Source: an uncultured delta proteobacterium (GTDB lineage Bacteria > Desulfobacterota > Binatia > UBA9968). From it: a stretch of 64,000 nucleotides of DNA. Each line of letters begins with the position of its first letter. Position 1 is the first letter of the stretch. Shown here in pieces: positions 4,214 to 56,522 of this stretch. Location: assembly GCA_963840855.1 (NCBI GenBank), contig CAWJBB010000050.1, positions 1 through 64,000 on the forward strand, read 5' to 3'. The translations under genes were made by a program, and so were the position numbers. The notes beneath the pieces were generated by a model. The model had not been told where the DNA came from, did not search any database, and saw only the letters and a list, made by a program, of their open reading frames with translations.

Positions 4214-5404
4214 TTAGATCCTCAATTGAAATAATCTCTGAGCATTCTTCCAGCGAATCAGTTCCTTATGCTCTTCTGAAATCTTCGCGTTATCCTTAAG
4301 AAGCCGGACGTCTTCGAATTTCATCCTTCCGCCGGGATCGTCATGGGGGTAATCGGTGGCGAAGAGAAAGCGCTCCGCGCCGAGAAACTGGACGGCCTCC
4401 GGTAGCTCCGGTTCCTCGGTTTCAATGGTGAAATAAAAGTTATTTTTAAAGTAATAACTTGCCGGCTTCTTATTCTTTTCCAGAAACTGACTCGCCGGCA
4501 GGATTGCCCGCGCCCGGCGAAGCTTCTCGCCGATCTTGGATAGTGCGCGATTCGACAAGGGCTCTTCCTGGTCGTCGTAATCCACTGGCGGCGCTTCCAA
4601 AACTTTGTCCAGGCGCTCCACCAATGGTTTGATAAAGGATGTCCCGGCCTCGGTGTAAATAAACTGTAATTTTGGCAATGCGTCGAGCAAGCCGCTGGTA
4701 AAGAGCGACACCAGACTCATCTGCCCTTCTTGGGGCGCGAAAACATAGAGCCCGTCACGCTGAAATAGCAGGAGATTGCTGATACGGTGGCCATGCTGAA
4801 CATTATGGAGATAGAGCGGCATCGCCAAATCCTCAGCCTTTTCAAAAAACGGCCAAAGCTCGCGACGACTCCCGAGGGGTTCGCCGTAGGGATGTTCTTT
4901 CACCGGAAAAACTTTGTCCAGAACCGCGCTCTTGAAACCTTGTTCCTTAGCCCATTCTAGCTCGCGGATGGAAGCTTCGACGTCTTGCAACGCCACGAGC
5001 GCAACACCGAGAATTTTCCCGGGAAACTCGTTCATGATGCGCAGCATCGCTTCATTATGTGAGCGCGCCATGCTCGTCGCTAATCCGGGTTCGATGAGAT
5101 AGGACCACCAACCGGAGAACTGGGGCAGAACAATATGCATCTCGATGCCTAATCGCCTCTCGTAATCCGCCATGCGCGCCTCGAGGTCCCAAAGACTGCG
5201 AAACATGGCGCCGGAACCCGGCGCGCCCAGTGGACTTGTGCCTGCCACCTGCGGCGCATCGCCGGGAAAATCGACGTCTGAATAGAGGCCGGCTTGGTCG
5301 AATTGAAGTACCGGCCTATGGGAACTCAGCATGCCACCAACGCCGTCAAACGCGTCCCGTGGCATCAAGTGGGTATCGCAGTCAACAATCAAGACCGCCT
5401 CCAA
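4214..5404 (-). CDS. Amidohydrolase_2 family protein (decarboxylase/hydratase-like)
   Basis: DCDTH, LYLH, EAG and FATDYPH motifs. Confidence 0.88.
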   Translation of the reverse strand: MEAVLIVDCDTHLMPRDAFDGVGGMLSSHRPVLQFDQAGLYSDVDFPGDAPQVAGTSPLGAPGSGAMFRSLWDLEARMADYERRLGIEMHIVLPQFSGWWSYLIEPGLATSMARSHNEAMLRIMNEFPGKILGVALVALQDVEASIRELEWAKEQGFKSAVLDKVFPVKEHPYGEPLGSRRELWPFFEKAEDLAMPLYLHNVQHGHRISNLLLFQRDGLYVFAPQEGQMSLVSLFTSGLLDALPKLQFIYTEAGTSFIKPLVERLDKVLEAPPVDYDDQEEPLSNRALSKIGEKLRRARAILPASQFLEKNKKPASYYFKNNFYFTIETEEPELPEAVQFLGAERFLFATDYPHDDPGGRMKFEDVRLLKDNAKISEEHKELIRWKNAQRLFQLRI

Positions 5405-9148: not shown

Positions 9149-10435
9149 ATGTCACAATCAACCGCACGCACCGCCGCCGGAGGGCAGCGCATCCTTGAAG
9201 CCATCAGCGCGCTCCGCCACCGAAATTACCGTCTCTATTGGTTCGGCCAACTATTTTCCGTGCTGGCGCAGAACATGGAACATGTCGCCCAGGGCTGGCT
9301 GGTGTTGGAGCTCACCAATTCTCCTTTAGCCCTCGGAGTTACGGGCCTGGCCCATGCGATCCCGACAATTACCTTGACATTGATCGGCGGCGCGATTGCC
9401 GACCGCGCCGACCGCAGGCGCATCATGATCGCCTCCCAGTGCTGCACGGCTCTTATGTTTCTGATTCTTGCGGTGCTGGTGCTGACCAATCTCGCCGCGC
9501 TCTGGCATGTCATGGTTTTAGCGTTTATCTCCGGGAGCATCCGAGCTTTCGACAGGCCCAGCAGGATGGCCCTACTGCCGCAAATGGTACCCAGGGAGGA
9601 TATTCCAAACGCGGTTGCCATCGGCGGCACGATCTGGCAATTATGCCGTCTCGTTGGACCGGCCGCAGCCGGCATTTTGATTTATCTTTTCGGCGTGGGC
9701 CCGACGTTTTTCACCTGTTGTTTGGCGTCGTCCACCGCGGTCAGTCTCTGGCTCGCCATTCGCGCGGACCAGCCCGCGCTCGCGGCCAGCGCCGGCGGTT
9801 TACGCAAGAATATGCTGGCCGGCGTTCACTTCATCCGCAACAACGAACTCTTCTACACGTTCATGGGCATGACGTTCTTCAACAGCGTTTTCGGCATGTC
9901 TTATTTGATCTTGATGCCGGTGTTCGCGCGCGACATTCTCAATGTCGGTTCCCAGGGATTCGGCTTCCTGCAAACCGCCGGGGGCGCCGGCGCGCTGATT
10001 GGCACATTGGCAGTCGCCTATTTATCCGACGCGCGCCGCCTACCCCTGCAAGCAGCGCGCGGCGCCGCTCTGTTCGGCGTGCTGCTGCTCCTTTTTGCCT
10101 ATTCACGCGCCTTTCCGTTCTCTTTGGCCTTGGCCTTCGTGCTCGGAATGTCGGGCCAGTTCTACATCACAGCTATAAACACAGTTTTGCAACTCAACTT
10201 ACCCGAGCAGTTGCGCGGCAGAGTCATGGGAGTCTATGGTTTGACCTGGGACTTGATGCCGGTTGGCGGAATGGTGGCCGGAACCATCGCCGAATTCGCC
10301 GGCGCCCCCGCTGCGGTAGCGGTGGGCGGGGCGTTCGTGTCCGGGCTCGCGCTCTGGGTCATCTCCATCGCGACGCGATTCGGTGCCGAGGAACGAAGCG
10401 AAGGGAAGGAAAGCGCGTCCATAAGACCGGGGTGA
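9149..10435 (+). CDS. MFS transporter (MFS_3/EntS-like)
   Basis: ALRHRNYRLYWFGQ, GAIADRADRRR, LRGRVMG; about 12 TM segments. Confidence 0.92.
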   Translation: MSQSTARTAAGGQRILEAISALRHRNYRLYWFGQLFSVLAQNMEHVAQGWLVLELTNSPLALGVTGLAHAIPTITLTLIGGAIADRADRRRIMIASQCCTALMFLILAVLVLTNLAALWHVMVLAFISGSIRAFDRPSRMALLPQMVPREDIPNAVAIGGTIWQLCRLVGPAAAGILIYLFGVGPTFFTCCLASSTAVSLWLAIRADQPALAASAGGLRKNMLAGVHFIRNNELFYTFMGMTFFNSVFGMSYLILMPVFARDILNVGSQGFGFLQTAGGAGALIGTLAVAYLSDARRLPLQAARGAALFGVLLLLFAYSRAFPFSLALAFVLGMSGQFYITAINTVLQLNLPEQLRGRVMGVYGLTWDLMPVGGMVAGTIAEFAGAPAAVAVGGAFVSGLALWVISIATRFGAEERSEGKESASIRPG

Positions 10436-10440
10436 AGTTT

Positions 10441-11427
10441 ATGGCTGAGAAGAAAGCCAAGAAAGCGCCGGGGGGGCCAAAGAAACGCCGCAAACTCGCC
10501 GGCAAAGCCATCGCCCTCGAAGCCAAAGAACTCCTTGACGAGCCGGCGCCGGGCAATGTGAGCGCGCTGCAAGAGACGATAAAAACCGACGGCGGCACCG
10601 TGCTCGCCTCGTACCGCGACCCCTTCGGCGGCAAGTGGCTGGTGCTGGCCGCGCTGCCGATTGAAAAAGTCGAGCCCACCCCCTATCAGCGCAATCTCTC
10701 TGATACGCACGCGCGTAAACTGGAAACGGTCATCGCTAAACTCGGCCGCTTCCTTGATCCGATTGTCGTCGTGCGCAAGGAAAGCAAAGAAAGCACCACC
10801 CGTTACTGGACGCCCAATGGCAACCATCGTCTGTCGGCGATGAAAACCCTCGGAGCGAAAAGCATCGTCGGCATTGTCGTTCCAGAAGCATCCACCGCGT
10901 ATCAAATCCTCGCGTTGAATACCGAGAAGGCGCATAATCTGCGCGAGCGGGCGCTGGAAGTCATCAAGATGTACCAGGAACTGGCGACCCTGGATGACGC
11001 GACCGAGGAAGCGTACGCGCTGGAATTCGAGGAGGCCGCGCTGATCACCCTCGGTCTCTGTTACCTCGAAAACGGCCGCTTCAGCGGCGGTGCCTATCAC
11101 CCGATCTTGCGCCGATCGGACCAATTTATAAAAAAGTCGCTCCACGCGGCGTTGGCAACGCGCCGCGAACGCGCCAGCGCCCTGATCGATCTGGATAAGA
11201 CCGTAGTTGAAAAGGTCGAAGCGTTAAAGGCGAAAGGAATGACGAGTCCCTATCTGAAGAGTTTTGTCGTCGCTCGCATCAATCCGATACGCTTTAGGCC
11301 CAAAGACGCCGCGCCGCTTAGTTTCGATGAGGTCATGGAGCGCATGACGAAAGCCGCCGAGAAGCTCAACGTCGAGAAAGTCAAAGTCGAAGATCTCGCG
11401 AAATCCGGCGGCGCACCTGAGGATTAG
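10441..11427 (+). CDS. Orphan ParB/Srx N-terminal domain protein
   Basis: PIEKVEPTPYQR, LDPIVV and TPNGNHRL (GxxR) motifs; ATG at 10441 right after the MFS stop. Confidence 0.8.
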   Translation: MAEKKAKKAPGGPKKRRKLAGKAIALEAKELLDEPAPGNVSALQETIKTDGGTVLASYRDPFGGKWLVLAALPIEKVEPTPYQRNLSDTHARKLETVIAKLGRFLDPIVVVRKESKESTTRYWTPNGNHRLSAMKTLGAKSIVGIVVPEASTAYQILALNTEKAHNLRERALEVIKMYQELATLDDATEEAYALEFEEAALITLGLCYLENGRFSGGAYHPILRRSDQFIKKSLHAALATRRERASALIDLDKTVVEKVEALKAKGMTSPYLKSFVVARINPIRFRPKDAAPLSFDEVMERMTKAAEKLNVEKVKVEDLAKSGGAPED

Positions 11428-12172: not shown

Positions 12173-12901
12173 ATGGCTGAAAAGGAATATCTCGTCGGCA
12201 CGGTGCGTCCAACGAATCGTCCGGAGGCGGGCCAAGCGCTGGATCTCGACACTTTGATACCGGAAAAGATCAAGTTCGTCGCGCTGACGATGAACTTCAC
12301 CAGCGGCACTGCAGAAGAGTTCAGCAAGTCGATGCCAGGGTACGAAGCCAAGGCGGCGGAATTGGCGAAGATGGGCGCCCACCTGGTTCGTCCCAGCGGC
12401 GCGCCGCCCTTCATGCTTCTGGGCTACTTGCGCGAACAGGAACTCATCGCCAGCTGGGAGAAAAAATACGGCGTGCAAATGTTCACGTCGGGACAGAACC
12501 ACGTGCACGCTCTGCGCACCCTGGGGATTAAGAAATTTGTCGGCGCCAGCTATTTTCCCGAGCAGATGAACAACATCTTCGCGCGCTATTTTACCGACGC
12601 GAAGTTTGAAGTGCTGTCCATGGAAGGCATTGACTCGCCATTCGCCGATGTCCCCAAGGTGCCGGCGACGGAGATTCTCGAATTCATGAAGCGTATCGCC
12701 GCCAAACACAAAGAGGCCGAAGCCATTTATATGCTCGGCTCGGCGTGGAAGACCCTCGAGATCATCGAACCGTTGGAAAAGTCCACCGGGTTGACCGTCG
12801 TGCACGCCGGCCCGGCGCGCTGCTGGGAGACGCAACTTCGTTTAGGCGTGCGCCATCCGATCAAGGGATACGGAAAACTACTCGCCGAGATGCCGAGCTA
12901 G
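12173..12901 (+). CDS. Asp/Glu racemase / maleate isomerase / arylmalonate decarboxylase-like protein
   Basis: Family layout (..ALRTLGIKK.., YF..A.FEVL, IIEPLEKSTGLTVV, GYGKLL); GGAGG RBS. Confidence 0.8.
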   Translation: MAEKEYLVGTVRPTNRPEAGQALDLDTLIPEKIKFVALTMNFTSGTAEEFSKSMPGYEAKAAELAKMGAHLVRPSGAPPFMLLGYLREQELIASWEKKYGVQMFTSGQNHVHALRTLGIKKFVGASYFPEQMNNIFARYFTDAKFEVLSMEGIDSPFADVPKVPATEILEFMKRIAAKHKEAEAIYMLGSAWKTLEIIEPLEKSTGLTVVHAGPARCWETQLRLGVRHPIKGYGKLLAEMPS

Positions 12902-48387: not shown

Positions 48388-48466
48388 TCTCTGCTTGTGT
48401 GAAGAAAAAAATTCGTACGCCCTACCCCCCAAAGAAAAAAAGGGTAAAAGATCAAAGGGCAAAGGA

Positions 48467-51148
48467 TTACGGAAGGTCCTGGGCAAGTCGAAAGCCGAGG
48501 TAGCTGATGCGGTCGTCGGCACTGGTCCTGCCGCCCCGGCCCGATGAACGCAGGGCCTCCGGGTCGTCGTCCCAGGAACCGCCGCGGAGCACACGCTCGA
48601 CGAACGATTTATCTATGTCCGTAGCACTTGGTCCAGCCGGGTTATCGTATTTGTTTATACACCATTCCCATACGTTTCCTGCCATATCGAGCACGCCCTG
48701 CCTCGTCGCTCCGTTCGGATAAACGCCCACGGCAGTTGTACGCCTCAGGTTACTTTCCAAACTGTTACATCGCGCCGCGTCCCACTCCGGGCCCCACGGA
48801 TACACGTTCTTTGCGTCACCTCCGGTCGTGGCTTGCTGCCACTCCCATTCCGCTGGTAATCGGACCTTCTTGCCAAGACGCGCGCTCAGCCAGCGGCAAA
48901 ACGCGACGGCCTCGTACCACGACACAGCTGTTCGTGGACTATTATTCTCCAGCCAAGTGGAACGAAGAGGCGCTGGGCTCGCCTCAATATTGTCCCACCA
49001 TTGCGGTTTGTGATAACCATCTTCCGCGTGAATAAAACTCTCGAACTGTGTATTCGTGACGAGATATCGCGAAATCCGAAACGAGTTCACCTCGAAAGTC
49101 TTTTCGACTCCTTCCAACTTCACGTTCCCCGCTGGAATAACGACCCAGTCAATGTCGGGAACGCCGTCTTCTGTTAAACCCACCCCGCGTCTCCGGTCGC
49201 CTAATGCGGCGAGATAGTGCCCAATGGTTAGTCGGTCCTGGTGTGATAGTAAGTCCTTGTGCAACCGCTGAAGCAATCGATCATGAGGCGCGACATATTC
49301 CCTCACGGCGGCGTCAATGCCGTGAGCGCCGACGCGATGCACGATTTCCCGCAGCCTGCCCAGCCGGTCGCTGTGCCATAAATATTGTAGGTCGTAGTCG
49401 TGTTTCACCCATTCTTTGGCTTCGATCTCCGCTTGGCGCAGCACAAAAAGATCGTCGCGGTTTTCAGCCACCCACCGGGTTAGAGCCGGCCAAGTCTCGA
49501 ACAACTTTTCGTGAGCGACAGAGACGGTGCTCTGCTTTCCCTCACCCTCAGCGGAAAGCAGTCGTTCTTTGCTCAAAATATCGACAATCGGGTGGAGATC
49601 GACCGCGAATGTTTCCTTTAATACACGCCGCCGTGTGGGTTGGCCGTCGATGTTGACCAAAACTAGCGGTTGAAAAATCTTGGGGAGCCAGGTATTCGGA
49701 TCGGAACCGACCTGCTTGGCAACCTGATCCTCAACCTTATTGACATGAGCGCCGATGGCGCCGGCGATACCGCCCAGGGCGTCATAAACGTTTTCGCTCA
49801 GCACATTGCCAGAGCGTTCTCGGAACAACCGCTCCAAGGCGAAAGCGAGCAGCGGTAAACTACCTGGCTCCGAGCCGGCATCTTGTATCAACCGGCGCAC
49901 GAGCCGATCTGGAATAGTAAGCGCCGCGCATTGGGCAGGTTTCACGATAATGTCAGCCATCATGTAGTTCTCCGCGCGTCCTAGCGGATAATGCCCGCTA
50001 CCGCGGAGCACCTTCAGAAGATCGTCATGCTCGTGACAATAATGCAAAAAATCGCTGCGAATTGTTGCGATGACTCGGAAGCTCGCTTCATTCACGGCTC
50101 TGAACAGAGCAGAGAGAAACGGTTCCGCGCGGTCTTTCGTTTGAACGGTGAACAACTCCTCCATCTGATCGAGAAACAATATCAAGCAATCGGCACTCAC
50201 GCCTTTAGTAATAATCGTTTTCAGGAGTTCCGAGAAGATGCCGGGCTCCGAAAGCAACCGCTGTCCCGATTCATATGAATTGACCCCAGCCCGCTCAGCC
50301 TCAGAGTGCAAGACACGCATGAGAGCATCGAAAGGATGACCGCCTTGGCTCGGCACCATGCGCTTGCATACGCAACTCACCATGCCGGTCAGGCCCAGCT
50401 CTTTTAGTTTCGGTAGTACGCCGGCATCAACGAGCGAAGACTTGCCGGTCCCGGAACCGCCGCTGATGATAAGGAACCGACCTTCCGCTTGACGCATCCG
50501 GTCGAGAACCTCCACGACCTCTGCGTCACGCCCGAAGAACACCGGTGCGTATTCGCGAGTGAAGTGCATCAGGCCGGGATACGGCGAGCCGTCTTTGTTG
50601 ATATCCCAGGTGATAGCGGGGGCTGATTCAGTTTTTTGCCGGGTGGTATCCTCGGTTGTCTTGTGTTGTTCCTGGTGCGTTGTAACGGCGGCAAGAACGA
50701 GCGCGGCAAGGTCATGCGGCGAGGAAAACAAGCTGGCCGTCTTCTCCGTGAGCAAATACTTCCGAAAGGAATTGATGCTCTCGCCCTTATCTTCCGCCTT
50801 TTGGGAATCCATGAAATCAGCCCGCCACGGTGTACTTTCGTTTACGACAAAAGTCAGGCAGGGCTTGCTAAGCCTCTCGGCTTGGCGAAATTCTAACTCA
50901 GTAATAGACAATTTGTCGGGATTTCCGTGTAATGCCGGCGGAACGTAACCGTAGCGAAAAGCAAAGATACCGACGTAAATATCAGTGTTCCTAACGTCCG
51001 TAAGACACTTGTCGACCGGGCGCTGGTCCGCAGCGACGTAATCCTCCATTGCGATAACATCATACCTGCTCTTGCGCAGGGTCTTATAAACAACCTCCCG
51101 ATATTCCTTAAGGTCTTCGTAAGTGGACGAGAGATAAATGGTCGTCAT
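48467..51148 (-). CDS. DUF4062 + nSTAND1-type NTPase + FGE-sulfatase (CLec-fold) protein
   Basis: IYLSSTYEDL..R, RYGYVP, SITELEF; PYPGL..F, GGSGTGKSS, LDQMEELFT, LPLL, HEKL..WP; VRLPAEWEWQ, DMAGNVWEW, RGGSW, GFR. Confidence 0.9.
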   Translation of the reverse strand: MTTIYLSSTYEDLKEYREVVYKTLRKSRYDVIAMEDYVAADQRPVDKCLTDVRNTDIYVGIFAFRYGYVPPALHGNPDKLSITELEFRQAERLSKPCLTFVVNESTPWRADFMDSQKAEDKGESINSFRKYLLTEKTASLFSSPHDLAALVLAAVTTHQEQHKTTEDTTRQKTESAPAITWDINKDGSPYPGLMHFTREYAPVFFGRDAEVVEVLDRMRQAEGRFLIISGGSGTGKSSLVDAGVLPKLKELGLTGMVSCVCKRMVPSQGGHPFDALMRVLHSEAERAGVNSYESGQRLLSEPGIFSELLKTIITKGVSADCLILFLDQMEELFTVQTKDRAEPFLSALFRAVNEASFRVIATIRSDFLHYCHEHDDLLKVLRGSGHYPLGRAENYMMADIIVKPAQCAALTIPDRLVRRLIQDAGSEPGSLPLLAFALERLFRERSGNVLSENVYDALGGIAGAIGAHVNKVEDQVAKQVGSDPNTWLPKIFQPLVLVNIDGQPTRRRVLKETFAVDLHPIVDILSKERLLSAEGEGKQSTVSVAHEKLFETWPALTRWVAENRDDLFVLRQAEIEAKEWVKHDYDLQYLWHSDRLGRLREIVHRVGAHGIDAAVREYVAPHDRLLQRLHKDLLSHQDRLTIGHYLAALGDRRRGVGLTEDGVPDIDWVVIPAGNVKLEGVEKTFEVNSFRISRYLVTNTQFESFIHAEDGYHKPQWWDNIEASPAPLRSTWLENNSPRTAVSWYEAVAFCRWLSARLGKKVRLPAEWEWQQATTGGDAKNVYPWGPEWDAARCNSLESNLRRTTAVGVYPNGATRQGVLDMAGNVWEWCINKYDNPAGPSATDIDKSFVERVLRGGSWDDDPEALRSSGRGGRTSADDRISYLGFRLAQDLP

Positions 51149-54466: not shown

Positions 54467-55358
54467 CGAGTTTGGCTCTCAGTGAAAGGTGCTTGACCCT
54501 CGTCCTAATGCCATAAGGAAAAGCACCGCTCTTTTCTGCTTTTCCTCAAGTGACAAGCGTTCTGCTGTGCGGTCTCCATGTCTAGGGACTAATGCCGCGC
54601 CGTCGTCGCTGAAAATCCAATAGCGTAGCCACGCTTGACGAAGAGAGTATTTTTTGCCTTTGCAGGGCTTGAAAGAAGATGCGCCACGGGAGCAATGTTG
54701 TCGGCATCGAGGAAGTCCCCCGATGACACATAAAGCCAATGGCGTGCCGTGCCGATTTGACGTGTATTGGCGAATTGTGTTCGCAAAAACACACCTTTGC
54801 CGCGTGCTTAAGGGGAGGTCACTTCGGGCGCGAATTAACGAACGGGTGTTTTGGCCCTGTCAGAACTGACCGCAAAGGTGCCACCCCTGCTCGCAAATTG
54901 CGTCGAATTTTTATGGCTTACACGCAGGCGAGGGCAATACTGAAAGAGTTAAGGAAATTGCAAAAGAGGGCTAGAGAGAAACTGAAGTAGAAATCTTCGG
55001 CCCGGCCAGCGTTGGCGTGCGCTGTATTGCCGGGCCATTGAAAGGGGGCCAGCTGTGAGTCCAGCCGCACCTTTCGGGGCGCTTTATAGCACGTTCCCCA
55101 CCTTTGCGAAATAGGGTTGGTCTAAGCCTCACGTTGGCCCAAAACCCCGAGTGAATTGGATCAACCTATACCATTTTCCGCAGGCCACTATTATTTCTTG
55201 ACTCCCCATTCCCACCAGTGTTATTGCCTCTCTTACAACCTAGTTAGCCCTCGTCTTCTGGATAGACTTTCCTACTTAGTGCGGCCTCTACACTTTGATG
55301 GGCTTACACCGGGTCATTGTTAAGCCGTCTTCAAATAATTGTTGAGGGAGGGTTTTAT

Positions 55359-56522
55359 ATGTTTAGCCATTCTACCAACACGGCTTCGTTTTTCTCCGTC
55401 CTTATGGCTGCGCTCATTTTCTCGCTGTCTCTGGCGGGGGTTGCTTGGGCGCAGGGCAACACCAGTTTTGGGACAGGCGCGCTTCAGAGTAACACTACAG
55501 GGAGCTTTAACACCGCCATCGGACTGAACGCGCTCTTTAGCAACTCTATTGGCAACTTCAACACTGCCAGCGGAGGCCAGGCACTCGTTAGCAACACCGA
55601 GGGTATCCAGAACACCGCCAGTGGAGTCAATGCGCTTTTTAGTAACACTAGCGGCAGCTTCAACACTGCCAGCGGCGTCAGTGCGCTCGTTTTCAATACC
55701 ACGGGCGAGCAGAACACCGCCAGCGGCGTCAATGCGCTCTTTAGTAACACCACGGGCAACCTCAACACCGCCAGCGGATTCCAGGCGCTCTCTAGCAACA
55801 CCGACGGCAGCCTCAACACCGCCAGCGGAGTCAATGCGCTCATTAACAACACCACGGGCAACTTCAACACCGCCAGCGGAGTCAATGCGCTCATTAACAA
55901 CACCACGGGCGCCGTCAACACCGCCATCGGAGTCGCTGCGCTCTTTAGCAATACCGAGGGCGGCGGCAACACCGCTATCGGATTCAACGCCAATGTGTCT
56001 ACTGGGAATCTGACTAACGCTACGGCTATCGGCACTGGAGCCACCGTCAATGCTAGCAATAAGATCCGCCTGGGAAGTACTTTTGTCACGGTGATCGAAG
56101 GGGAGGTGGCATTTACTTTCTCTTCGGACAAGACCCAGAAGGAAAACTTCCAGCCGGTCGATGGAGAAGAAGTGCTGGGGAAGATTCGGGGCTTGGAGCT
56201 ATCGAGCTGGAACTTAATTGGCCACGATCCTAAGAAGTTTCGCCACTATGGCCCGATGGCGCAGGACTTCTATGCAGCCTTCGGCCACGACGGATTAGGA
56301 CAGATCGGCTCGGAGACGACGATCAACTCGGGCGACCTGGCGGGGATTCTTATGATCGCCGTGCAGGCGCTGGAGAAGCGCACGGCGGAGCTAAAACAGA
56401 AGGAGGCGCAGATGGCTGTGCTGGAATCGCGGTTGGAGGCACTAGAGTTGCGAAATAATCACTCTATCCAGATAACAGCCGGGAAAAACCTCGGCGACAA
56501 GATGGTCGACGTTATGCCGTAA
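55359..56522 (+). CDS. Secreted fibre/adhesin-like protein with 17-aa repeats and a peptidase S74-like chaperone domain
   Basis: Signal peptide, NTAxGxxALxxNTxG repeats, then SDKTQKENF, HYGPMAQDF, AVQAL and a coiled coil. Confidence 0.88.
   Translation: MFSHSTNTASFFSVLMAALIFSLSLAGVAWAQGNTSFGTGALQSNTTGSFNTAIGLNALFSNSIGNFNTASGGQALVSNTEGIQNTASGVNALFSNTSGSFNTASGVSALVFNTTGEQNTASGVNALFSNTTGNLNTASGFQALSSNTDGSLNTASGVNALINNTTGNFNTASGVNALINNTTGAVNTAIGVAALFSNTEGGGNTAIGFNANVSTGNLTNATAIGTGATVNASNKIRLGSTFVTVIEGEVAFTFSSDKTQKENFQPVDGEEVLGKIRGLELSSWNLIGHDPKKFRHYGPMAQDFYAAFGHDGLGQIGSETTINSGDLAGILMIAVQALEKRTAELKQKEAQMAVLESRLEALELRNNHSIQITAGKNLGDKMVDVMP
55458..55997 (+). repeat. Ten-plus 51-bp coding tandem repeats
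   Basis: AACACCGCCAGCGG.GTCAATGCGCTC units recur every 51 nt. Confidence 0.9.

What the first reader, a model, noticed from the sequence alone, without database searches (positions are those of the whole stretch)
48405..48600. DGR variable-region signature at the 3' end of an NLR-like sensor, with no local RT or template repeat
Seen: the final codons are TGG GAC GAC GAC CCG GAG GCC CTG CGT TCA TCG GGC CGG GGC GGC AGG ACC AGT GCC GAC GAC CGC ATC AGC TAC CTC GGC TTT CGA CTT GCC CAG GAC. The variable-looking positions are nearly all NNC/NNT, as expected from adenine-specific mutagenesis of AAC/AAT template codons. After the stop come pyrimidine repeats (CCTTTGCCCTTTGATCTTTTACCC) and a G-run, like IMH/cis elements. 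Established: FGE-sulfatase/CLec domains ending RGGSW...GFR are the classic DGR targets. Inference: a remote (trans) DGR target that hypermutates the ligand-binding tip of a STAND protein.
Basis: partly seen in the sequence, partly recalled or inferred. Interest (0 to 1): 0.75.

Follow-up and report, generated by a model that had tools for sequence, protein, structure and literature searches.

The report
Orphan DGR-written tip on STAND sensor
The end of this NLR-like sensor gene was rewritten in the past by a diversity-generating retroelement, but the assembled genome holds no such retroelement, so this is a known kind of hypervariable immune-type sensor that is now probably frozen.

Summary
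Window 48467-51148 (minus strand) encodes an intact 893-aa protein with DUF4062, nSTAND1 and FGE-sulfatase (C-type-lectin fold) domains. Its last ~38 codons (48482-48595) bear a true DGR variable-region (VR) signature. Against a template-repeat (TR) remnant in a same-genus genome, 21 of 33 template-A sites differ but only 9 of 81 other sites. 13 of 14 variable codons are NNC, against 30% gene-wide. The nearest homologue (96% identical) has 17 of its 39 differences within 36 residues here. A metagenome contig matches both flanks closely but has the 103-nt core replaced.

Related loci carry complete VR-avd-RT-TR cassettes, so the family is a real DGR target class. The pyrimidine-rich sequence after the stop is a conserved element of this subfamily.

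The "remote active target" reading is not supported. I found no DGR reverse transcriptase, no Avd of the L039 type and no TR in the 7.1-Mb, 94%-complete assembly. None of 5 other genomes with cassette-less homologues has a DGR RT, and the same-genus DGR is decayed.

Most likely this is an orphaned, now static VR. A trans-acting DGR on unassembled DNA remains possible. DGR-diversified STAND sensors and remote targets are already published, so this is a new member of a known kind.

The parts
48467..51148 (-). Intact gene for an 893-aa DUF4062-nSTAND1-FGE-sulfatase protein (P0001), an NLR-like STAND sensor
   Evidence: ORF and translation. Pfam domains. 816 homologues at E<=1e-10 among 7997 scored candidates; nearly all of the 120 listed carry these domains.
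50879..51139 (-). DUF4062 N-terminal domain (aa 4-90), the presumed effector or adaptor module
   Evidence: Pfam PF13271, E 4.3e-22. Residues 42-78 weakly match a PDB chain of telomerase protein component 1 (E 4.8e-4). The effector role is inferred, not tested.
49394..50584 (-). nSTAND1 P-loop NTPase (aa 189-585) with Walker A GGSGTGKSS and Walker B-like LFLDQMEE
   Evidence: Pfam PF20703, E 1.3e-86. The motifs are read from the translation and are invariant in alignment A1.
48482..49150 (-). FGE-sulfatase / C-type-lectin-fold sensor domain (aa 667-889)
   Evidence: Pfam PF03781, E 4e-42. PDB sequence matches include FGE-fold proteins and, weakly, the Treponema denticola variable protein 2y3c. 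No cysteine lies in the last 39 residues.
48482..48595 (-). DGR variable region (VR), RVLRGGSW...GFRLA. The hypervariable core is about 48502-48604.
   Evidence: Ungapped 114-nt alignment to the TR remnant of same-genus G002: 21/33 A sites differ against 9/81 non-A sites. 13/14 variable codons are NNC. Metagenome contig X5 record 12 replaces 48502-48604 with 100 other letters between near-identical flanks.
48479..48496 (-). Constant 3' end of the VR (GGCTTTCGACTTGCCCAG). It lies where TR/VR homology ends in relatives, an IMH-like position.
   Evidence: In L032, L039, L040 and L079 the TR/VR identity runs to ...GCCCAG and then diverges. The same segment is shared with the G002 TR.
48439..48466 (-). 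Conserved pyrimidine-rich post-stop element, TCCTTTGCCCTTTGATCTTTTACCCTTT
   Evidence: Present on the VR side in 4 of 4 DGR-linked VRs of this RT clade. Found at 15 of 29 GFRLAQ-type gene ends against 1 of 69 other FGE-type ends. It occurs once in the own genome. Its function is not tested.
48368..48368 (.). Breakpoint 98 nt after the stop. Contigs of close relatives match up to here and then run on unlike this genome.
   Evidence: X3 record 9 and X5 record 12 both end their match at 48368 with loose ends. In L039 the avd gene starts about 100 nt after the target's stop, so this is where a cassette would begin (inference).
48087..48158 (-). tRNA-Ser-like remnant (acceptor, anticodon loop CGA, long variable arm, T arm, CCA; the D arm is missing). 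It suggests an island border.
   Evidence: Read from the sequence. Rfam gives only sub-threshold tRNA-like hits (tmRNA 21.5 bits). ARAGORN calls no tRNA in the window.

Best explanation
The gene encodes a STAND (NLR-like) sensor. Its C-terminal C-type-lectin/FGE domain is the ligand-binding part. Ligand binding would drive NTP-dependent oligomerisation of the nSTAND1 module and release the N-terminal DUF4062 module; this step is inferred from the family.

A diversity-generating retroelement wrote the binding tip. An RT copied an Asn-codon-rich template repeat with random bases opposite adenines, and the cDNA replaced 48482-48595. The cognate avd-RT-TR cassette sits directly downstream in related loci. 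It is no longer at this locus and is not in the assembled genome. The VR is therefore most likely an orphan, frozen at its last written state and inherited as an ordinary gene.

Shown: the VR signature, its relation to real TRs, and the absence of RT and TR from the assembly. Inferred: the loss of the cassette (as opposed to a failure to assemble it) and the signalling mechanism.
For: - **A-specific mismatches to real TRs.** Against the TR remnant of same-genus G002, 21/33 A sites differ against 9/81 non-A sites. All 9 non-A differences are synonymous-type (8 at third codon positions, one TTG/CTG first-position Leu change). Fisher p 3e-8, no gap needed. Against the L040 TR the counts are 17/31 against 9/83.
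- **Codon pattern.** 13/14 variable codons are NNC against 30% gene-wide.
- **Family-wide variability.** Among 80 homologues with the same spacing, column entropy is 3.4 bits at the 12 TR-Asn positions against 1.9 bits at the other 12.
- **Recent VR-specific change.** P0002 is 96% identical, with 17 of its 39 differences in aa 849-884. Contig X5 record 12 has 2 and 5 differences in its flanks but a replaced core.
- **True cassettes in homologues.** L032, L039, L040, L079, L067, L057, L085 and L089 show TR/VR pairs with adenine-only mismatches. L039 and L079 show the order VR-avd-RT(IGNLTSQ, YVDD)-TR.
- **No cassette here.** The only RVT_1 hits are a frameshifted group-II-intron-type RT on C87. 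RTs of 6 DGR loci, the L039 Avd, 5 TRs, an adenine-tolerant scan and an Asn-codon scan find nothing except the VR itself.
- **Orphans are common in the family.** 0 of 5 genomes with cassette-less homologues have a DGR RT; the 2 hits are group II intron RTs. The same-genus DGR is broken into fragments.
- **Downstream DNA differs from close relatives** from 98 nt after the stop, and carries tRNA-Ser-like remnants.
Against: - The assembly is a MAG of 93 contigs, 94% complete and 8% contaminated. DGR cassettes with repeats or on mobile DNA are easily left unbinned, so absence is not proven.
- VR-specific divergence between 96-98% identical relatives means a DGR served this lineage very recently and may still do so.
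- The gene, the constant 3' end of its VR and the post-stop element are all intact, as expected of a target still in use.
- Seven TIGR02436 (Avd-like four-helix-bundle) matches exist in the genome. I did not inspect their neighbourhoods one by one.
- No raw reads of the source population were available, so present-day variability is untested.
- The five orphan-bearing genomes have no stated completeness.
Confidence: 0.6

Rival explanations
1. Active remote target. A DGR cassette elsewhere in the cell, on unassembled chromosome, a plasmid or a phage, still rewrites this VR in trans. It would recognise the constant VR 3' end and perhaps the conserved post-stop element.
For: Remote targets and trans activity are documented (Wu et al., PMC5758913, and Dore et al., PMC10907252; passages read). 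The VR core differs between near-identical relatives. The gene, the constant 3' end and the post-stop element are intact. The MAG is only 94% complete.
Against: No RT, TR or L039-type Avd was found in 7.1 Mb by nine different searches. 0 of 5 other genomes with cassette-less homologues have a DGR RT. The only DGR of this RT clade found in the genus is decayed. In the 4 linked loci of this clade the cassette lies directly downstream of the target, not remote.
Confidence: 0.3
2. Not DGR-related. The C-terminal pattern would be the ordinary conserved FGE-sulfatase end, with NNC codons from codon bias and variability from positive selection or recombination.
For: The RGGSW...GFR scaffold is common to all FGE-fold proteins. 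No TR or RT is present in the genome.
Against: Only 30% of the gene's codons end in C, against 13/14 at the variable positions. Mismatches to two independent real TRs are adenine-specific. Family variability tracks TR-Asn positions. Only one copy of this VR or its flank exists in the genome, so there is no donor for gene conversion.
Confidence: 0.04

Closest known systems
DGR-diversified STAND NTPase 'antigen sensors' with C-terminal CLec/FGE domains (Dore et al. 2024, PNAS, PMC10907252, e.g. Thiohalocapsa PB-PSB1 DGR 6 and clade 5D; predicted earlier by Kaur et al. 2020, eLife, PMC7159879)
   Same: An nSTAND1 NTPase is followed by a C-terminal FGE/CLec domain whose last ~35-40 codons are the VR. 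The template is Asn-codon based. Incomplete loci and candidate remote targets are described in that paper (passages read).
   Different: The N-terminal module here is DUF4062; the word is not found in the main text of either paper (supplements not seen). No RT or TR is present in the assembly. I found no description of the conserved pyrimidine-rich post-stop element in the passages I read.
Complete DGR cassettes next to homologues in Nitrospirota MAGs (loci L032, L039, L040, L079)
   Same: The same GGSW...GFRLAQD VR scaffold, the same end of TR/VR homology at GCCCAG, and the same post-stop element. L039's target also starts with a DUF4062-type N-terminus like P0001 (by eye).
   Different: Those loci have avd, an RT (IGNLTSQ / YVDD) and a TR within about 1.5 kb downstream. 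This window instead has unrelated AT-rich DNA and tRNA-Ser-like remnants there. The VR here is one codon longer than those TRs but equal in length to the G002 TR.
Bordetella phage BPP-1 Mtd / Treponema TvpA DGR targets (canonical CLec variable proteins)
   Same: A C-terminal VR on a C-type-lectin fold and adenine-specific mutagenesis. Treponema has remote targets (Wu et al., PMC5758913). There is a weak sequence match to TvpA 2y3c (E 4.9e-5).
   Different: Those are a phage tail fibre and a lipoprotein, not a cytoplasmic STAND sensor. BPP-1 uses a GC-rich inverted repeat after IMH (PMC3240598 seen only as a listing). Here the conserved downstream element is a pyrimidine-rich direct repeat, and the local fold is no better than shuffles (z 0.15).

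Membership tests
DGR target gene (variable protein) | VR at the 3' end of a CLec/FGE-fold domain with a conserved scaffold (GGSW...GFR) | tested here: met
   Pfam FGE-sulfatase covers aa 667-889. The scaffold is seen in the translation and in alignment A1.
DGR target gene (variable protein) | Differences from a template repeat confined to template adenines | tested here: met
   Tested only against TRs of other genomes. G002 TR: 21/33 A sites against 9/81 non-A sites. L040 TR: 17/31 against 9/83. The non-A differences are synonymous-type divergence between lineages.
DGR target gene (variable protein) | Cognate TR in the same genome | tested here: not met
   blastn, an adenine-tolerant ungapped scan (best non-self >=39 non-A mismatches of 134) and an Asn-codon-density scan all failed. 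The assembly is 94% complete, so this means 'not found', not 'absent'.
DGR target gene (variable protein) | DGR-type reverse transcriptase in the same genome | tested here: not met
   RVT_1 finds only a frameshifted group-II-intron-type RT on C87. The L039 RT and tblastn with 6 DGR RTs find none. The weak C61 hit has no RT ORF. The same query finds DGR RTs at 47-49% identity in relatives, which shows its reach.
DGR target gene (variable protein) | Accessory Avd gene beside the RT and TR | tested here: inconclusive
   The L039 Avd finds nothing. TIGR02436 gives 7 matches elsewhere in the genome. Their neighbourhoods were not inspected, but no RT exists for them to accompany.
DGR target gene (variable protein) | Population-level hypervariability restricted to the VR | tested here: inconclusive
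   Between strains or relatives the answer is yes (P0002; X5 record 12). Within the source population it was not testable, because only Logan contigs were available and no run held half of the words.
STAND NTPase (nSTAND1) | nSTAND1 profile match with intact Walker A and Walker B | tested here: met
   PF20703, E 1.3e-86, covering 376 of 379 profile positions. GGSGTGKSS and LFLDQMEE are invariant in A1. NTPase activity is not testable here.
Formylglycine-generating enzyme (catalytic FGE) | Catalytic cysteine pair in the C-terminal segment (recalled from FGE literature, not from a call) | tested here: not met
   There is no cysteine in RGGSWDDDPEALRSSGRGGRTSADDRISYLGFRLAQDLP. The domain is a binding scaffold, not an enzyme (inference).

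The most novel reading that the evidence does not exclude
The ~28-30-nt pyrimidine-rich element directly after the stop codon (consensus CCCTKTGCYCTTTGYYCTTTKACCCTTT) is the VR-side recognition signal for this clade of DGRs. It would take the place of the GC-rich hairpin of BPP-1. STAND sensor genes carrying it, including cassette-less ones like this one, would then be 'plug-in' targets. Any DGR of the clade entering the cell, for example on mobile DNA, could rewrite them in trans.
Probability: 0.15. Interest if true: 0.6.

Novelty: new member of a known kind. Interest (0 to 1): 0.35.

Why it matters
- It adds a clear, quantified example of an NLR-like bacterial sensor whose ligand-binding tip was written by a DGR and which has since lost its writer. 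DGR surveys start from the RT, so such orphans are missed. Here 0 of 5 other genomes with cassette-less homologues had a DGR RT, so many 'hypervariable' STAND sensors may be frozen records of past diversification.
- It points to a conserved non-coding element on the VR side. If functional, this element bears on how DGR cDNA finds its target, a step still poorly understood.
- The basic biology (DGR plus STAND plus CLec) is already in print, so the find is confirmatory rather than surprising.

Tried and rejected
- **Own-genome repeat search.** blastn of 48467-48700 gave only chance matches of 31 nt or less.
- **Adenine-tolerant scans.** After capping A content, nothing scored better than 39 non-A mismatches of 134.
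- **C61 tblastn hit.** The weak hit to two RTs (E 0.04) has no RT-like ORF.
- **Motif look-alikes.** Hits on C28, C29, C40, C49 and C87 (5 mismatches each) are unrelated sequence. C28, C29 and C40 were inspected.
- **Metagenome-contig scan with P0001.** Nothing closer than 60-63% identity, and no use for the cassette question.
- **Sequencing runs.** No run held half of the words and all were Logan contigs, so read-level SNVs could not be measured. Parts without cover mean nothing.
- **Structure of the post-stop region.** The fold is no better than shuffles (z 0.15, 108 of 200 shuffles fold as well). The terminator scan found no site at 48385-48466.
- **PADLOC.** No family for P0001 or its two upstream neighbours.
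- **Rfam on 47500-48700.** Only sub-threshold tRNA-like hits.
- **Flanking genes.** Neighbours on the stop-codon side, below 48467, are an amidohydrolase, a solute-binding protein and glyoxalases. Neighbours above 51148 are an ATP-dependent DNA ligase, unknowns, a Peptidase_S74 protein and a DsbA-like protein. None is a DGR or clearly phage component.
- **Earlier scan notes.** They gave nothing on this locus.
- **Not run.** No structure prediction or complex prediction was run, because neither would bear on the question asked.
Full report
**1. What is there**

The finding lies at the 3' end of a minus-strand ORF, window 48467-51148, 893 aa (P0001). Pfam assigns DUF4062 (aa 4-90), nSTAND1 (189-585, E 1e-86) and FGE-sulfatase (667-889, E 4e-42). 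The Walker A motif (GGSGTGKSS) and the Walker B-like motif (LFLDQMEE) are present and invariant among 14 aligned homologues. The gene has no frameshift or internal stop.

The pyrimidine repeats and the G-run follow the TAA stop as described. The window is the first 64 kb of a 187-kb contig (C50). That contig belongs to a 7.1-Mb assembly of 93 contigs, 94% complete and 8% contaminated.

**2. Is the VR signature more than chance?**

Yes, by four independent measures.

- *Codon pattern.* I defined "variable" codons without looking at the window's own third bases, as those aligned to Asn codons in true template repeats of relatives. 13 of these 14 codons are NNC and one is AGT. Only 30% of codons outside the VR end in C (p about 2e-6).
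- *Same-genus template.* A same-genus genome (G002, contig C252) carries a TR remnant encoding RVMRGGSWNNKPENLRSSNRNRNNNADNRNNNIGFRLA. It aligns without gaps to window 48482-48595.
  - 21 of 33 template-A sites differ, against 9 of 81 other sites.
  - Eight of those nine are at third codon positions and one is a synonymous Leu first position.
  - Fisher p is 3e-8.
- *Nitrospirota template.* Against the TR of locus L040 the figures are 17/31 against 9/83.
- *Family-wide variability.* Of the 122 stored proteins (the query, 120 listed homologues and P0122), 96 matched the scaffold pattern and 80 share the common 24-residue spacing between RGGSW and GFR. The 16 with other spacings, ours included, were left out. 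In those 80, column entropy is 3.4 bits at the 12 TR-Asn positions and 1.9 bits at the other 12 (Mann-Whitney p 5e-5).

**3. Recent, VR-specific change**

The nearest homologue (P0002, 96% identity, same 90% cluster) differs at 39 positions, and 17 of them lie in residues 849-884. That is 17/36 against 22/857 elsewhere (p 8e-16). Several of the other 22 differences also fall in the FGE domain.

A Logan contig from a permafrost metagenome (X5 record 12, 628 nt, depth 3.3) matches 48368-48501 with 2 differences and one gap. It matches 48605-48779 with 5 differences. The 103 nt between are replaced by 100 other letters. That is a one-codon length difference, as with P0002.

Loose ends of other contigs read on into AAC-rich variants of the same segment. 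These are contigs of other samples, not reads of the source population, and one low-depth contig can err. Wu et al. describe indels opposite AAC codons in DGR VRs (PMC5758913, figure legend read).

**4. The family is a true DGR target class**

I fetched 80 loci from species-representative genomes. An adenine-tolerant scan of about 80 FGE-type gene ends flagged candidates, and I inspected ten alignments.

- Eight are clean TR/VR pairs with adenine-only mismatches: L032, L039, L040, L079, L067, L057, L085 and L089.
- One (L042) is partial at the chosen offset.
- One (L102) is a duplicated gene end rather than a TR.

In L039 and L079 the order is target(VR) - avd (about 120 aa) - RT (360-372 aa, with IGNLTSQFF and YVDD motifs) - TR. 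The TR lies about 1.5 kb downstream of the VR.

**5. The post-stop element**

In the four linked loci of this RT clade, TR/VR identity ends at ...CTTGCCCAG. The VR side then continues GAC-xx-CC-TAA CCCTGTGCCCTTTGCTCTTTTACCCTTTGC, while the TR side continues TCCGCCCGCACGG. The window has TAA TCCTTTGCCCTTTGATCTTTTACCCTTT.

Across all fetched loci, 15 of 29 distinct GFRLAQ-type ends carry the element, allowing up to 7 mismatches of 28. Only 1 of 69 other FGE-type ends does. Three of the 14 GFRLAQ-type ends without it are TR-side or hybrid ends. Many loci with the element have no TR within the fetched 10 kb.

It tracks the VR, not the presence of a cassette, and its function is untested. The G-run is not conserved, and the local fold is no better than shuffles. 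Wu et al. report GC-rich inverted repeats after IMH in only 127 of 372 DGRs, so other downstream signals are plausible.

**6. Is there a DGR in this genome?**

None was found.

- The RVT_1 profile hits only C87:47741-48111. This is a frameshifted RT with group-II-intron-type motifs (GFRPGRSAHD, YADDF).
- The L039 RT gives only a 14.5-bit echo of that fragment, and the L039 Avd gives nothing.
- tblastn with six DGR RTs gives only chance hits, plus the TR-encoded tail of one query matching the VR itself. The C61 hit was examined and dismissed.
- Five TRs of relatives hit only C50:48479-48602.
- The adenine-tolerant scans find no template.
- An Asn-codon-density scan reaches at most 9 per 40 codons, and none of the 25 hits printed (of 30) is TR-like. 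Six control loci score 9-12.
- Seven TIGR02436 (Avd-like) matches exist. I did not inspect them individually, and with no RT they are not evidence of a DGR.

The RT query does reach far. In 41 related genomes it finds full-length DGR RTs at 47-49% identity in G028, G037 and G012, each with a TR-like stretch beside it. The tallies include two unpublished genomes (G009, G015), but no claim here rests on them.

**7. Orphans and decay elsewhere**

Five genomes hold homologues with the post-stop element but no local TR (G041-G045, reached through L033, L031, L043, L044 and L045). L033 comes from a record titled as a 4.36-Mb chromosome. At E<=1e-5 the L039 RT query matched in 2 of the 5, and both matches are group II intron RTs (RYADDF / RYADDC). 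So 0 of 5 have a DGR RT. Their completeness is not stated.

In same-genus G002 the DGR is in pieces. A 135-aa FGE fragment abuts a 100-aa RT fragment that is 74% identical to L039's RT. An unrelated 129-aa ORF follows, then the RT tail and the TR. I did not scan that ORF against any family library. G002 is a MAG with 9% contamination, so assignment of that contig to the genus is not certain.

In L024, the 58%-identical homologue ends ...GFRLAQSARAA* and runs into a TR-type flank. This is what VR x TR recombination deleting avd and RT would leave; that is my inference.

**8. Local context**

Contigs of close relatives stop matching at 48368, 98 nt after the stop. In L039, avd starts about 100 nt after the target's stop. 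Below 48368 the window has AT-rich DNA, a tRNA-Ser(UGA)-like anticodon arm (about 48306-48334), and a D-arm-less tRNA-Ser(CGA)-like element ending CCA (48087-48158). ARAGORN calls no tRNA.

Further on that side lie housekeeping-type genes (amidohydrolase, solute-binding protein, glyoxalases). On the other side of the sensor gene lie an ATP-dependent DNA ligase, unknowns, and a Peptidase_S74 protein with NTxxG repeats. GC is slightly lower from 48 kb onward. This looks like the border of an accessory island.

No ortholog of the sensor exists in the 40 relatives searched. The best match there is 31% identity over the NTPase, apart from the FGE fragment in G002. The gene is therefore accessory.

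**9. Mechanism and verdict**

The sensor most likely works like other STAND/NLR-type proteins. The CLec tip would bind a ligand, the nSTAND1 module would oligomerise on NTP, and the DUF4062 module would act or recruit. This is inferred from Kaur et al. and Dore et al. (passages read). The role of DUF4062 rests on recall and is untested.

The tip was written by DGR mutagenic retrohoming; the sequence pattern shows this. The writer is absent from the locus (shown) and from the assembly (shown). It is probably lost (inferred, about 0.6), or it sits on unassembled or mobile DNA (about 0.3).

**10. Novelty**

DGR-diversified nSTAND1/NACHT-CLec sensors, incomplete loci and trans targets are in print (PMC10907252, PMC7159879, PMC5758913). 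This is a new member of a known kind.

The conserved pyrimidine element may be new. I saw no mention of it in the passages read. My two literature searches were not aimed at it, and supplements were closed, so I do not claim that it is unpublished.

Noticed in passing
window 48087-48158 (-) and about 48306-48334 (-): A D-arm-less tRNA-Ser(CGA)-like element with acceptor stem, long variable arm, T arm and CCA, plus a second tRNA-Ser(UGA)-like anticodon arm. These are probably scars of integration at tRNA-Ser genes. ARAGORN calls neither.
   Followed up: partly
L024 about 12690-12770 (Desulfuromonadales MAG, homologue P0016): The homologue's VR runs into a TR-type 3' flank (GFRLAQSARAA*, then the sequence that follows TRs in L039 and L079). 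This is as expected if VR x TR recombination deleted avd and RT. It is one route to an orphan VR.
   Followed up: partly
L153 / L160 (G002:C252, same genus), L153 about 814-1876: A decayed DGR. An FGE-domain fragment is fused to a mid-RT fragment, an unrelated 129-aa ORF follows (not scanned against any family library), then the RT tail and a TR with a 2-nt deletion in its 3' end.
   Followed up: yes
P0122 (cluster mate of P0001/P0002) and L040 about 4420-4539: Two relatives have the VR read out of frame after GGS(W): RGGSGTTNRGTCV... and RGGSWTSARGTCV... These are either real frameshifts in VRs or assembly errors caused by VR heterogeneity.
   Followed up: no
G000:C87:47500-48600 (L011 about 9500-10560): A group-II-intron-type reverse transcriptase broken over at least three reading frames. 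It is the only RT-like sequence in the assembly.
   Followed up: partly
window 55317-56522 (+), also C50 about 77969-78560: A Peptidase_S74 (endosialidase chaperone) protein with Asn/Thr-rich NTxxG repeats, of tail-fibre or adhesin type. Similar repeats occur further along the contig.
   Followed up: no
L049, L050, L077, L079: Several Nitrospira loci carry two STAND-FGE genes in tandem, usually with the post-stop element after only one of them. These may be multi-target DGR arrangements.
   Followed up: no
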